DNA from: Escherichia coli | GTDB lineage: Bacteria; Pseudomonadota; Gammaproteobacteria; Enterobacterales; Enterobacteriaceae | Assembly (NCBI RefSeq): GCF_016903815.1 | Contig: NZ_CP069973.1 | Reading direction: 5' to 3' (one strand) | DNA length: 64,000 bases | Shown: piece by piece, positions 19,704 to 22,700 of the stretch | How the letters are laid out: every line of letters begins with the position of its first letter | How positions within the stretch are numbered: position 1 is the first letter of the stretch | Program-made: the position numbers

Positions 19704-22700
19704 TTAAACAAAAAAACGAAGCAAGCATACGCCTGATGGCGGTCCAAAAAAAAGAGTCATCTTGCCTAAGAGTATTGGCAGGATGGTGAGATTGAGCGAC
19801 AATCGAGTTACACCGTCGCTTAAAGTGACGGCATAATAATAAAAATATGAAATTCCTCTTTGACGGGCCAATAGCGATATTGGCCATTTTTTTAGCGCAA
19901 CATCTGCGGCAAATTCCCTTCTCCATACAGGTGTAGTGCACCGACTGCGACCACATAGCGCCCCGGCGGCATGGCGCATAATTTGTCCCGCCAGGCGAGA
20001 TTTCGCTGATGCATCAGCACATCGTACAGCGATTGACTGAACGTATTAGGCAGCGTTATTTCATTATTTTGCGGCGGCGCATTCAGCCACCAGCTCATCA
20101 TTTGTTGCAGCAACCGTGCATTGGTGTGCCAGTGGGTCAGCGTATCGTCCAGCAGTGCCAGTCCGTTGTCAGGGAGCTGGAGCAACATGGCAATCTGGTT
20201 TTCAGCCCCTTCCAGTTCAATCACGGGTTTATGTTGTTGCTTCGCCGCCTGCAATAGCTGGTAATCGATACCGTATTCTGCCCGCAGCCCCAGTTTTTGT
20301 GCCTGCGTCGCCTGAAGAACCATCGCGATTTGCCACAGCGGTTGGGTAGAAAAGAGTGAGGGAGAAATGCCCATCTCCTGGCTAATGTGCTGCAGGTTTT
20401 GGAGTTGCTCCTCGCTAATGCGCTCTTCCAGCGCCTCGCAGGCAGGCAAATTAGCAAAAGGCGTATCGCTGGTGGAAACATCCGCCTCGACGATCAGCGC
20501 ATCGGCGTTTTTGAGCTTTTTGAGCAAACGGGTGGGCAGGGGAGCCATATCGTGGCTGCCCATATGAATACTGCCAATCAGATGAAAATGGCGATTGCCG
20601 GGAAGAGAGATATCGATAGCAGGCCAGGTGTAATGATTACCGCGCAGCGCGGCCCAAAGCGTTTTTACCCGGTACAACAGATCCATACGACCTCCCTTTG
20701 TGAAATATCATGCTAGCGCGCGGGGAGGGATGGCGCAAATGGAGTTATGAGGCTTGTTCAGTGGTAGCTTAAATATGATCGAAAAATTGTTTTTGCTTTG
20801 AAACGAAAGACTGCACCGGTGTTGGTGGCGTCAAAATCGCCGAGGCGTTCCCTGAAGGCCGGGGCAGCCCACATGGATGTGGGCTGAGGGCGCGTTTTAC
20901 AGGGATGTTACCTCGCGCCCGACCCGGTAGCCGCAAGGGATAAGCTGAGGGTACCGCGCAGCGGCGATTTTGTTCGCCAGAGCCCGGGGGTGCAGGGGGC
21001 GGCGGCGATTGGCCGCCCCCTGCGCGCTCCCTGCGCCAGTCACTTTATATGGCATTACTCATAAAAGGAGCGCAACAAGAACTGGATCTCACAAACGCAT
21101 TAAGTAAATACCAATCATTCCTTCGGTTTAAACCGCAGCAATCGGTTGGCGTTACTCACTACGGTAATCGACGAGAGCGCCATTGCCGCTCCGGCAACCA
21201 CCGGGTTAAGCAGTGTTCCAGTGAACGGCCACAAAATACCGGCGGCGACCGGAATACCAATGCTGTTGTAGATAAACGCACCGAGCAGGTTCTGCTTCAT
21301 ATTGCGCAGCGTTGCGCGGGAAATCGCGAGCGCATCTGCAACACCCATCAGGCTATGGCGCATCAGGGTAATCGCCGCGGTTTCAATGGCAACATCACTG
21401 CCGCCACCCATCGCAATACCGACATCCGCCTGAGCCAGCGCTGGCGCGTCGTTAATGCCGTCGCCCACCATTGCCACCTGACGTCCTTCACTTTGCAGAC
21501 GTTTGATCGCTTCGGCTTTACCGTCCGGTAGCACCCCGGCTATCACCTCATCAATCCCTGCTTCTTTGGCGATCGCATTGGCGGTGGTTGGGTTATCCCC
21601 GGTTAGCATCACCAGACGATATCCCGCTTTATGCAGGCGTTGCAGCGCCGCCACGCTATCACTACGCAATGGATCGCGTACAGCCAGCAGGGCTACCGCT
21701 TTCCCGTCAACCGCCAGCAGCACAGGCGTTGCCCCTTGCGATGCCTGAGCTGAAATATCTGCCTCAATCGCTTTAGTATCAACTTGCTGGTCATTTAACA
21801 GCGCCTGATTGCCCAGCAATACCGCATGACCTTCAGCTTCACCGCTCACACCCAGCCCGCGCAATGTGCGGAAACCGTTGACCTGCGGTAGCTGCATATC
21901 ACCTGCTTTATCGAGGATCGCCCGTGCCAGCGGGTGGCTGGAACCTTGCTCCAGCGCCGCCGCCAGACGCAATGCCTGCGCTTCATCAACATCAGCAAAC
22001 GTTTTTACTGCGACAACCTGCGGTTTACCTTCGGTCAGCGTCCCGGTTTTATCGAACACTACGGTGTCGAGCGTACTGGCGCGTTGCAGAGCGTCGGCGT
22101 CCCGCACCAGCACACCAAACTCAGCCGCCCGCCCGACGCCCGAAATAATCGACATCGGCGTCGCCAGTCCCAGCGCACACGGACAGGCGATAATCAGCAC
22201 CGTGGTGGCAATCACCAGGGTATAGACAATCTGCGGTGCCGGACCAAAGAAATACCAGATTGCCGCACTGATCAGCGCAATGACTACCACCACCGGCACA
22301 AACACAGCGGAGATTTTATCCGCCAGTTGGCCGATTTCAGGCTTGCTGCTCTGGGCCTGGCGCACCATGCGAATGATTCGTGACAGCGTAGTATGGCTGC
22401 CGACCGCACTGGCACGAAACAGCACACTGCCGTCCTGTACCACTGTCCCGGCATGGACGCTATCGCCTTCGCCTTTTTGCTGCGGGATTGGTTCGCCCGT
22501 CAGCATCGCTTCATCCAGCCACGCTTCGCCCTGGGTAATCTCGCCATCTACCGGCACGCGATCGCCGGTCGTCAGGCGCAGCAACATACCTGGCTGCACT
22601 TCCGCCAGCGGCACGCTTTTTTCACCTTCGTCAGTTACCAGGCGCGCCGTCGGTGGGGTTAAATCGAGTAATTTCTCCAGCGCCTTTGAAGAACGCTGAC

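What the first reader, a model, noticed from the sequence alone, without database searches (positions are those of the whole stretch)
20687..21114. ybaQ not found between ybaP and copA; a GC-rich hairpin-dense segment sits there instead
K-12 has a ~113 aa HTH gene (ybaQ) here by recall, but no ORF of at least 60 aa exists in these 428 bp. About 20820-21050 is GC-rich and full of perfect inverted repeats: cagcccaca-tgga-tgtgggctg (~20867-20888), gggcgcg...cgcgccc (~20889-20921) and cagggggcgg-N10-ccgccccctg (~20992-21021). This looks like a structured non-coding element (small RNA, repeat family or mobile-element remnant), not a decayed ybaQ.
Basis: partly seen in the sequence, partly recalled or inferred. 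Interest (0 to 1): 0.5.

Follow-up and report, generated by a model that had tools for sequence, protein, structure and literature searches.

The report
TRIP1e repeat replaces ybaQ
The hairpin-rich segment between ybaP and copA is TRIP1e, a published copy of an E. coli intergenic repeat that replaces the ybaQ gene in about 6% of strains; it folds into a conserved structure of unknown function that resembles a known orphan RNA motif.

Summary
The window is E. coli. K-12 has ybaQ plus a REP/BIME cluster (725 bp) between ybaP and copA, and this strain has 358 unrelated bp there with no trace of ybaQ.

The core, about 20811-21076, is already described. It is TRIP1e, the ybaP-copA copy of the TRIP1 repeat family (Rudd 1999; Li et al. 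2024, PMC10888264). The published distances are 124 bp from the ybaP start and 38 bp from the copA stop, and both match. I find this arrangement in 346 of 5426 complete E. coli genomes.

Three things appear to be new relative to the papers I could read:
- **Spread:** TRIP1-like copies occur in Klebsiella (13 places in one chromosome), Citrobacter, Pseudocitrobacter and Pantoea.
- **Selected fold:** across 16 copies, 94% of cells pair, against 39-45% in slid controls. 40 of 69 pairs show compensatory changes. The CAUGGAUG loop never varies.
- **Motif link:** the 5' domain is a sub-threshold match to Rfam TwoAYGGAY (31.5 bits; cutoff 43). A homologous Pseudocitrobacter copy passes at 49.2 bits.

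The two GGA loops resemble CsrA binding sites. I found no promoter, no terminator and no sign of transcription or CsrA binding in the data I could read. Verdict: a real feature, already known, function open.

The parts
20811..21076 (+). TRIP1e repeat, as delimited in Li et al. 2024. My covariance model matches 20811-21082.
   Evidence: The published position is 124 bp upstream of the ybaP start and 38 bp downstream of the copA stop. It is 94.1% identical to K-12 TRIP1a. Model R1 scores 302 bits. GC content is 0.64.
20826..20979 (+). 5' domain: a long closing stem (20826-20846 with 20944-20979) around a multi-way junction. This is the TwoAYGGAY-like part.
   Evidence: Rfam RF01731 matches 20831-20970 at 31.5 bits, E=0.011, below the cutoff of 43. 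Helices 2-7 are kept by compensatory changes.
20865..20886 (+). Hairpin 1: stem CAGCCCACA/UGUGGGCUG with a UGGA tetraloop. The CAUGGAUG sequence is invariant.
   Evidence: CATGGATG is invariant in 16 of 16 aligned copies, while 6 of the 9 stem pairs show compensatory changes. TRIP1d has an almost entirely different stem with the same loop.
20888..20920 (+). Hairpin 2: stem GGGCGCG/CGCGCCC, with an apical ACAGGGAUGU at 20899-20908.
   Evidence: The stem covaries (GGGCGCG/CGCGCCC in E. coli, GGGCCG/CGGCCC in Klebsiella). UACAGGGAUGU matches the CsrA SELEX consensus RUACARGGAUGU as I recall it.
20992..21023 (+). GC-rich hairpin GCAGGGGGCGGC / GCCGCCCCCUGC.
   Evidence: Compensatory changes occur even between E. 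coli paralogues (GCGGC/GCCGC becomes GAGGA/UCCUC in TRIP1c). 6 of 11 pairs show changes on both sides. No U-run follows on either strand.
21024..21073 (+). 3' hairpin: GCGCUCCC (21024-21031) pairs with the conserved 3' box GGAGCGC (21066-21073).
   Evidence: The pairing covaries to GUUCAC/GUGAAC in the B-type copies (yegH-asmA, Pseudocitrobacter B, Citrobacter). The AGGAG is therefore a stem strand, not a ribosome-binding site.
20759..20810 (.). Left strain-specific flank. Together with TRIP1e it replaces K-12 DNA.
   Evidence: No K-12 counterpart. No sigma-70-like promoter was found.
21077..21116 (.). Right strain-specific flank between TRIP1e and the copA stop codon.
   Evidence: No K-12 counterpart; K-12 homology resumes at 21117. 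No terminator-like site.
20687..20758 (.). ybaP upstream region shared with K-12.
   Evidence: 96.5% identity to K-12 across 20500-20758; junction alignment.

Best explanation
**Shown.** The segment is TRIP1e, the ybaP-copA copy of the TRIP1 intergenic repeat family. In a minority of E. coli it occupies the place where K-12 has ybaQ plus a REP/BIME cluster. It arose by replacement of a segment, not by decay of ybaQ and not by a clean insertion. The element is a roughly 270-nt multi-helix structure. The fold is under purifying selection, because helices are kept by compensatory substitutions between paralogues and between genera. Two hairpin loops are close to fixed: CAUGGAUG never varies, and the second keeps an A-R-GGA-Y core in nearly every copy.

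**Inferred.** It most likely acts as a single-stranded nucleic acid, and most probably as an RNA read from the + strand, which is antisense to ybaP and copA. That RNA would present the two GGA loops to a sequence-specific binding protein. The 5' domain is the enterobacterial form of the orphan TwoAYGGAY RNA motif, which Rfam places in the Csr/Rsm clan. CsrA is therefore the leading candidate partner.

**Known consequence.** As repeated DNA it is a substrate for homologous recombination, and published work documents chromosomal inversions between TRIP1 copies.
For: **Identity**
- The window is 100% identical to E. coli strain 7/2, and 346 of 5426 genomes carry this arrangement.
- The core repeat is present in 5425 of 5426 genomes.
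- The published TRIP1e description matches in locus, distances, length, GC content and fold energy.

**Replacement rather than decay or insertion**
- Searches show the segment swap at this locus.
- TRIP1d at alx-sstT is likewise a segment swap with no target-site duplication.

**Selected structure**
- In 16 copies from 6 genera, 94.3% of cells pair against 39-45% in slid controls.
- 40 of 69 pairs show compensatory change, against 10-19 in slid controls and 0 of 500 shuffles.
- The loop CATGGATG is invariant.

**Spread**
- K. pneumoniae has 13 places in one chromosome.
- Copies occur at unrelated intergenic sites in Klebsiella, Citrobacter, Pseudocitrobacter and Pantoea.

**TwoAYGGAY link**
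- The E. coli copies tested score 28-31.5 bits.
- A full-length homologue in Pseudocitrobacter scores 49.2 bits, above the cutoff of 43.
- My TRIP1 model matches the core of a true Lachnospiraceae TwoAYGGAY and the whole 5' domain in Salinicola at 51.4 bits. These loci had been pre-selected for the loop pattern.
- Published work proposed CsrA binding for TwoAYGGAY (PMC4333381).

**Orientation**
- In all copies examined except two (TRIP1d, and the Pseudocitrobacter B copy, which faces the glnK start), the element's 3' end faces the 3' end of a convergent gene.
Against: **No transcription signals or data**
- No sigma-70-like promoter or intrinsic terminator was found on either strand.
- The sequence upstream of the copies is poorly conserved.
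- I found no TRIP1-flanking genes flagged in the CsrA CLIP-seq tables.
- I found no 3' ends near TRIP1a or TRIP1c in the Term-seq supplements held.
- Both datasets are gene-centred and may drop reads that map to several places.

**Strand and molecule not settled**
- Both strands fold equally well (z = -4.5 and -4.7).
- The G.U versus A.C count is only 18 to 11.
- So neither the strand nor RNA versus single-stranded DNA is decided.

**Weak points of the CsrA idea**
- There are only two loop GGA sites per copy; the third GGA is predicted to be paired.
- TRIP1b has lost the whole TwoAYGGAY core yet persists in about half of E. coli genomes.
- The Rfam score is below the family cutoff.
Confidence: 0.6

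Rival explanations
1. A purely DNA-level repeat, comparable to REP/BIME. The palindromes would form cruciforms or single-stranded DNA hairpins recognised by a DNA-binding or recombination protein. Alternatively they have no function beyond persisting and serving as recombination substrates.
For: - It lies in intergenic regions next to gene 3' ends, as REPs do.
- In this very locus it takes the place of a BIME cluster.
- In Klebsiella each copy is preceded by a REP-like sequence.
- No promoter or terminator was found.
- Both strands fold equally well.
- Rudd suggested cruciforms, and inversions between copies are documented.
Against: - The conserved fold is a branched, multi-way junction with long-range helices, not a set of simple palindromes.
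- The loops are asymmetric and invariant.
- The 5' domain matches an RNA family defined independently in Clostridia and Psychromonas.
- No RAYT-like or other transposase association was seen in the contexts examined.
Confidence: 0.22
2. It acts in the antisense orientation as part of the 3' untranslated region of the convergent gene, here copA. The stable structure would block 3' exonucleases or slow read-through into ybaP. This is the role REP/BIME elements play in K-12 at the same spot.
For: - No terminator-like site was found anywhere in 20600-21200, which includes the 38 bp between the copA stop and the element. copA transcripts should therefore run into it.
- In all but two of the copies examined the element abuts the 3' end of a convergent gene.
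- The - strand folds at -130.8 kcal/mol, z = -4.7.
Against: - Stabilisation would not need invariant loop sequences or a conserved branched architecture.
- At TRIP1a the aqpZ terminator lies between the gene and the repeat. The element is therefore outside that mRNA.
Confidence: 0.1
3. A non-autonomous mobile element (MITE-like), or a remnant of one.
For: - Presence varies between strains.
- Sites differ between genera.
- There are tandem and head-to-head pairs.
- Copy number ranges from 1 to 10 places per E. coli genome and reaches 13 in one Klebsiella chromosome.
Against: - The two ends of the element are not inverted repeats of each other (read directly).
- Filled-versus-empty comparisons at ybaP-copA and alx-sstT show segment replacement with no target-site duplication.
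- Each type sits at one fixed locus in E. coli.
- No copies were found in phage genomes.
- The hits labelled as plasmids include records of several megabases that are evidently chromosomes, and the contexts examined carry chromosomal housekeeping genes.
Confidence: 0.06
4. A decayed or frameshifted ybaQ pseudogene.
For: Only the position.
Against: - tblastn of YbaQ against the window gives no hit better than E=2.
- There is no DNA similarity to the K-12 ybaQ segment apart from REP sequences elsewhere in the window.
- The segment is 94% identical to TRIP1a.
Confidence: 0.01

Closest known systems
TRIP1 repeats of E. coli (Rudd 1999; Li et al. 2024, Genes 15:236), specifically TRIP1e
   Same: Same locus (ybaP-copA). 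Same distances to the flanking genes, and length within 1 bp of the published 265 bp. About 94% identity to TRIP1a, 64% GC and the same predicted 'double-Y' fold energy.
   Different: Nothing differs. This is that element. The paper does not mention that ybaQ is missing, does not look outside E. coli, does not test covariation and does not link the element to Rfam or CsrA.
TwoAYGGAY RNA motif (Rfam RF01731; Weinberg et al. 2010), Csr/Rsm clan CL00106
   Same: - Two adjacent hairpins with GGA-containing terminal loops in the same order.
- The A-G junction between them.
- A long closing P1 stem.
- Multi-copy in a gamma-proteobacterium (Psychromonas).
- A full-length TRIP1 homologue passes the family cutoff.
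   Different: - The window copy scores 31.5 bits, below the cutoff of 43.
- The second loop is AGGGAU (R instead of Y).
- TRIP1 has an extra GC hairpin and a 3' hairpin that are not part of the Rfam model.
- GC content is much higher than in the Clostridial members.
CsrB/CsrC/Rsm-type CsrA-sequestering sRNAs
   Same: GGA motifs presented in hairpin loops. The pattern ACAUGGAUGU...ACARGGAYGU, taken from this element, retrieved mainly loci from gamma-proteobacterial genera such as Shewanella, Acinetobacter, Marinobacter and Xanthomonadaceae. I take these to be Csr/Rsm-like, but none reached an Rfam threshold in the subset I tested.
   Different: - Only two loop sites per copy, against many in CsrB and CsrC (from memory).
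- No recognisable promoter or terminator.
- No binding or expression data found.
- Dispersed multi-copy repeat rather than a single regulated gene.
REP/BIME elements
   Same: GC-rich, palindromic and intergenic, next to gene 3' ends. They are interchangeable with TRIP1e at this locus.
   Different: No sequence similarity. TRIP1 is much longer, branched and low in copy number.

Membership tests
TRIP1 repeat family (TRIP1e) | High nucleotide identity to TRIP1a over about 265 bp (94% published for TRIP1e) | tested here: met
   94.1% over 271 bp against the K-12 lysO-aqpZ copy.
TRIP1 repeat family (TRIP1e) | Type-specific locus: 124 bp upstream of the ybaP start and 38 bp downstream of the copA stop | tested here: met
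   The ybaP start is at 20686 and the copA stop at 21115. The element spans 20811-21076 or 21082.
TRIP1 repeat family (TRIP1e) | 62-65% G+C and a very stable predicted 'double-Y' RNA fold (ensemble -149.6 kcal/mol published) | tested here: met
   GC 0.64. Ensemble energy -148.1 kcal/mol for 20810-21085.
TwoAYGGAY RNA (RF01731) | Score at or above the Rfam gathering cutoff of 43 bits | tested here: not met
   31.5 bits for the window copy and 28-31.5 bits for the other E. coli copies tested. A homologous Pseudocitrobacter copy scores 49.2 bits.
TwoAYGGAY RNA (RF01731) | Two terminal loops that carry AYGGAY | tested here: inconclusive
   Loop 1 is AUGGAU, which fits. Loop 2 is AGGGAU, or AAGGAC in TRIP1c, which has R at the Y position. 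Some Psychromonas sequences in the original alignment also have AGGGAC.
TwoAYGGAY RNA (RF01731) | A closing P1 stem, often long | tested here: met
   About 20 pairs, 20826-20846 with 20944-20979, with covariation.
CsrA-binding sponge sRNA (Csr/Rsm) | Several GGA motifs in hairpin loops at spacings that a CsrA dimer can bridge | tested here: inconclusive
   Two loop GGAs at 20875 and 20903, 28 nt apart. A third at 20938 is predicted to be paired. This is far fewer than in CsrB, as I recall it.
CsrA-binding sponge sRNA (Csr/Rsm) | Transcribed from its own promoter and ended by a terminator | tested here: not met
   No consensus promoter or terminator in 20600-21200. Upstream sequences are not conserved across copies.
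CsrA-binding sponge sRNA (Csr/Rsm) | Physical binding by CsrA | not testable with these tools
   The CLIP-seq gene tables list the flanking genes ybjE and dusC with 'No' in all four yes/no columns, which I read as no CLIP peak. No intergenic entries were found.
MITE / non-autonomous transposon | Terminal inverted repeats and target-site duplication | tested here: not met
   The ends are unrelated. Filled-versus-empty sites differ by segment replacement without duplication.
REP/BIME | REP consensus palindromes | tested here: not met
   The K-12 BIME segment matches other window REP clusters but not 20759-21116.

The most novel reading that the evidence does not exclude
TRIP1 elements may be the enterobacterial branch of the TwoAYGGAY RNA family. 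In that reading they are transcribed into roughly 270-nt structured RNAs whose two invariant GGA hairpin loops bind CsrA or another GGA-loop-binding protein. Strain-variable copies such as TRIP1e would then alter the pool of such RNA. Standard pipelines would miss them because the repeats attract reads that map to several places. If true, this would give a function to a repeat left unexplained since 1999 and to an Rfam motif left unexplained since 2010.
Probability: 0.25. Interest if true: 0.6.

Novelty: already known. Interest (0 to 1): 0.25.

Why it matters
As a finding it is ordinary. The element, its locus and its frequency in E. coli are published.

Three points are of modest wider interest:
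- **A clean natural polymorphism.** ybaQ (annotated as a HigA-family antitoxin) plus a BIME cluster is exchanged for a TRIP1 copy right next to the copper exporter gene copA.
- **Selection, not just persistence.** The covariation across genera shows that TRIP1 is not merely a recombination substrate. It is a structure under selection, with fixed loop sequences.
- **A testable hypothesis.** The link to TwoAYGGAY and to CsrA-type sites suggests a concrete experiment for two elements that have no known function.

There is also a practical point. TRIP1 copies cause spurious intermediate-frequency 'mutations' and real inversions in E. coli genomics.

Tried and rejected
- **Small ORF idea.** In K-12 and in the yohP copy the element ends in AAGGAG-N8-AUGAUG, which looked like a ribosome-binding site plus start codon. 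I rejected this. The window copy and all Klebsiella copies lack the AUG. The GGAGCGC box pairs with GCGCUCCC and covaries with it.
- **Genome-collection pattern scan.** It returned mostly loci from other gamma-proteobacteria that I take to be Csr/Rsm-like. It yielded only E. albertii, Pseudocitrobacter and one MAG copy.
- **Promoter and terminator scan.** Nothing found.
- **Phage collection.** No match.
- **Rfam, other families.** The other sub-threshold hits at this locus are chance matches to the GC hairpin and other short stretches. A sub-threshold scan of the Klebsiella and Citrobacter loci in one large batch lost the hits to the filters.
- **Strand test by G.U versus A.C counts.** 18 to 11, driven by the two worst-aligned sequences, so inconclusive.
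- **Literature.**
  - The search for Rudd's paper by title failed.
  - The CsrA CLIP-seq tables and the Term-seq supplements gave no support.
  - The E. coli dRNA-seq paper I recalled as PMC4288677 is not held.
  - Searching Weinberg's alignment for the E. coli and Klebsiella hairpin strings found nothing. Gap characters in the alignment make that uninformative.
- **Decayed ybaQ.** Rejected.
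Full report
**1. The observation**

The window is E. coli. Region 20600-21200 is 100% identical to strain 7/2. The local genes are:
- ushA, 17520-19172 (+)
- ybaK, 19209-19688 (-)
- ybaP, 19892-20686 (-)
- copA, 21115-23619 (-)

In K-12 MG1655 the same interval holds ybaQ (b0483, + strand), followed by 315 bp before copA. BLAST against K-12 shows homology up to window 20758 and again from 21117. So 358 bp here stand in for 725 bp of K-12.

The K-12 DNA between ybaQ and copA is a cluster of REP/BIME palindromes. No ORF of 60 aa or more lies inside the gap. 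YbaQ has no tblastn hit anywhere in the window, and the K-12 segment matches only other REP clusters in the window.

The region folds far better than shuffled controls on both strands (z = -4.5 and -4.7).

**2. What it is**

The central 270 bp or so is a repeat. It is present in 5425 of 5426 complete E. coli genomes, with a median of three places per genome, and is unannotated in RefSeq.

Other copies lie at these loci:
- lysO(ybjE)-aqpZ
- yohP-dusC
- downstream of putP, as an internally deleted form
- alx-sstT

A literature search on the flanking genes led to Li et al. 2024 (PMC10888264). These are the TRIP1 repeats first described by Rudd in 1999. The paper defines five types, a to e. TRIP1e is given as 265 bp, 94% identical to TRIP1a, 124 bp upstream of the ybaP start and 38 bp downstream of the copA stop, and present in 232 of 6725 genomes. 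Those distances place it at 20811-21076 in the window. My covariance model independently matches 20811-21082. GC content and fold energy also agree.

The feature is therefore already known. In the complete-genome set I used, 346 of 5426 genomes (6.4%) carry the window arrangement. ybaQ is detectable in 4834 of 5426.

The paper does not mention ybaQ, other genera, CsrA or Rfam. It was the only TRIP1 paper that my searches of the library found.

**3. Anatomy and evidence of selection**

I collected 16 full-length copies:
- E. coli TRIP1a, TRIP1c and TRIP1e
- E. albertii, two copies
- Pseudocitrobacter faecalis, two copies
- K. pneumoniae and K. aerogenes, seven copies
- Citrobacter freundii, one copy
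- Pantoea, one copy

One K. pneumoniae chromosome has 13 places.

The alignment and its RNAalifold consensus give 69 pairs in 14 helices. 94.3% of cells form standard pairs, against 39-45% when partners are slid by 1-3 columns. 40 pairs show compensatory double changes, against 10-19 when slid and 0 of 500 shuffles.

The architecture in window coordinates is:
- a long closing stem, 20826-20846 with 20944-20979
- a junction that carries hairpin 1, 20865-20886, with the CAUGGAUG sequence invariant in all 16 copies
- hairpin 2, 20888-20920, with apical ACAGGGAUGU
- a GC-rich hairpin, 20992-21023
- a 3' hairpin, in which GCGCUCCC (21024-21031) pairs with the conserved box GGAGCGC (21066-21073)

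That last pairing covaries to GUUCAC/GUGAAC in a second, 'B-type' lineage. This removes my early idea that AAGGAG-N8-AUG was a translation start.

Even within E. coli the stems differ while the loops stay. TRIP1c changes the GC hairpin by two compensated pairs. TRIP1d replaces nearly the whole stem of hairpin 1.

**4. Relation to known RNA families**

Rfam gives one meaningful hit, TwoAYGGAY (RF01731, clan CL00106). It covers 20831-20970 on the + strand at 31.5 bits, E=0.011, below the cutoff of 43. The other E. coli copies tested score 28-31.5 bits.

In Pseudocitrobacter a second copy lies head-to-head with the E. coli-type copy. It aligns with TRIP1 over its full length and scores 49.2 bits on the motif core, above the cutoff.

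My TRIP1 model gave these results:
- It finds the two-hairpin core of a genuine Lachnospiraceae TwoAYGGAY RNA at 17.8 bits. That RNA scores 72.6 bits in Rfam.
- It finds the whole 5' domain in Salinicola at 51.4 bits, including the junction sequences.

These loci had been pre-selected for the two loop motifs, so the evidence is not fully independent.

Weinberg et al. 2010 describe TwoAYGGAY as present in Clostridia, gamma-proteobacteria and gut metagenomes, with an often very long P1. The gamma-proteobacterial sequences at the head of their alignment are several copies from Psychromonas. A later motif survey proposed that TwoAYGGAY binds CsrA.

I conclude that the TRIP1 5' domain is a divergent, GC-rich relative of TwoAYGGAY. 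By Rfam's own criterion the window copy is not a member.

**5. How it most likely works**

*Shown:*
- It is a repeat.
- It replaced ybaQ plus a BIME cluster.
- It has a selected fold with fixed loops.
- It lies in intergenic DNA, and in all copies examined except two (TRIP1d, and the Pseudocitrobacter B copy, which faces the glnK start) its 3' end faces the 3' end of a convergent gene.
- Recombination between copies inverts chromosome segments.

*Inferred:* the branched fold and the asymmetric invariant loops fit an RNA that presents two GGA loops, 28 nt apart, to a protein. The loop UACAGGGAUGU matches the CsrA SELEX consensus as I remember it. The pattern built from the two loops retrieved mainly loci from Shewanella, Acinetobacter, Marinobacter and Xanthomonadaceae. 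I take these to be Csr/Rsm-like, but none reached an Rfam threshold in the subset tested.

*Against:*
- No promoter or terminator was found, and upstream sequences are poorly conserved.
- I found no support in the CsrA CLIP-seq gene tables or in the Term-seq supplements.
- G.U versus A.C counts do not settle the strand (18 to 11).
- TRIP1b lacks the core yet persists.

Repeats are often lost from such datasets because their reads map to several places. That is an inference, not a result.

*Rivals:*
- a DNA-level, REP-like element
- an antisense 3'-UTR structure for copA, supported by the absence of any terminator-like site between the copA stop and the element
- a MITE-like element, which is disfavoured

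The MITE idea is weak for three reasons. The two ends are unrelated. The filled and empty sites at two loci differ by segment replacement with no target duplication. Phage genomes hold no copies.

**6. Novelty and verdict**

The finding as given is a correct observation of an already published element, TRIP1e.

Relative to the papers I could read, these points appear to be new:
- the loss of ybaQ at this allele
- the spread of the family across Enterobacteriaceae and into Pantoea
- a sixth E. coli locus, yegH-asmA
- the covariation evidence
- the TwoAYGGAY and CsrA-site resemblance

These raise a testable hypothesis but do not establish a function. Interest is low to moderate.

Noticed in passing
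L015 362-632 (E. albertii yegH-asmA); E. coli genomes, e.g. NZ_CP130667.1 1920022-1920332: A sixth, divergent TRIP1-like locus lies between yegH and asmA. It is the 'B-type', with 3' box GUGAACGGAAC and about 83% identity to TRIP1e. It is not among the five types of Li et al. 2024. It is full-length in 2368 of 5426 complete E. coli genomes and 5'-truncated in K-12-like strains.
   Followed up: partly
L064 1862-2134(-) and 2169-2435(+); L132 2141-2408(-) and 2479-2748(+); L063 1-140(-) and 420-692(+); L130 2496-2766 and 2933-3203: TRIP1-like copies often come in pairs. Head-to-head pairs occur in Pseudocitrobacter, Citrobacter and an Escherichia-like MAG contig; the Pseudocitrobacter pair is one A-type and one B-type copy. 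A tandem pair occurs in K. pneumoniae.
   Followed up: partly
L129-L136, about 90 nt upstream of each Klebsiella copy: Klebsiella copies are preceded by a REP-like palindrome (GCCGGGTGGCGGC...CCCGGCCTAC) and a conserved AT-rich box, TTTAATTTATTCACC. The repeated unit there is therefore longer than in E. coli.
   Followed up: no
window 19810-19893 (+): sroB/ChiX small RNA at 81.1 bits in Rfam. It abuts the 3' end of ybaP, as in K-12.
   Followed up: no
window 54884-55048, 12612-12680, 14118-14148; also 54912-54989(-): REP/BIME clusters similar to the one K-12 carries between ybaQ and copA. One of them matches Rfam naRNA4.
   Followed up: no
window 4633-4697 (+): DnaX ribosomal frameshifting element, 96.8 bits.
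   Followed up: no
MG1655 915,226 and 2,229,177 / 2,229,205 (inside TRIP1a and TRIP1c): An experimental-evolution paper reports intermediate-frequency 'intergenic mutations' at these positions (PMC11510482). They lie inside the two most similar TRIP1 copies. They are probably read cross-mapping or gene conversion rather than independent mutations.
   Followed up: no
E. coli genome collection: ybaQ is found in 4834 of 5426 genomes and the TRIP1e arrangement in 346. About 246 genomes must therefore carry a third, unexamined allele at ybaP-copA. RefSeq names ybaQ a HigA-family antitoxin.
   Followed up: no
L139 1547-1760 (K-12 alx-sstT spacer): Where some strains have TRIP1d, K-12 has a different GC-rich palindromic repeat (CTCCCTCTCCC...GGGAGAGGG...GGGTGAGGG). 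This is a second case of one repeat type swapped for another.
   Followed up: no
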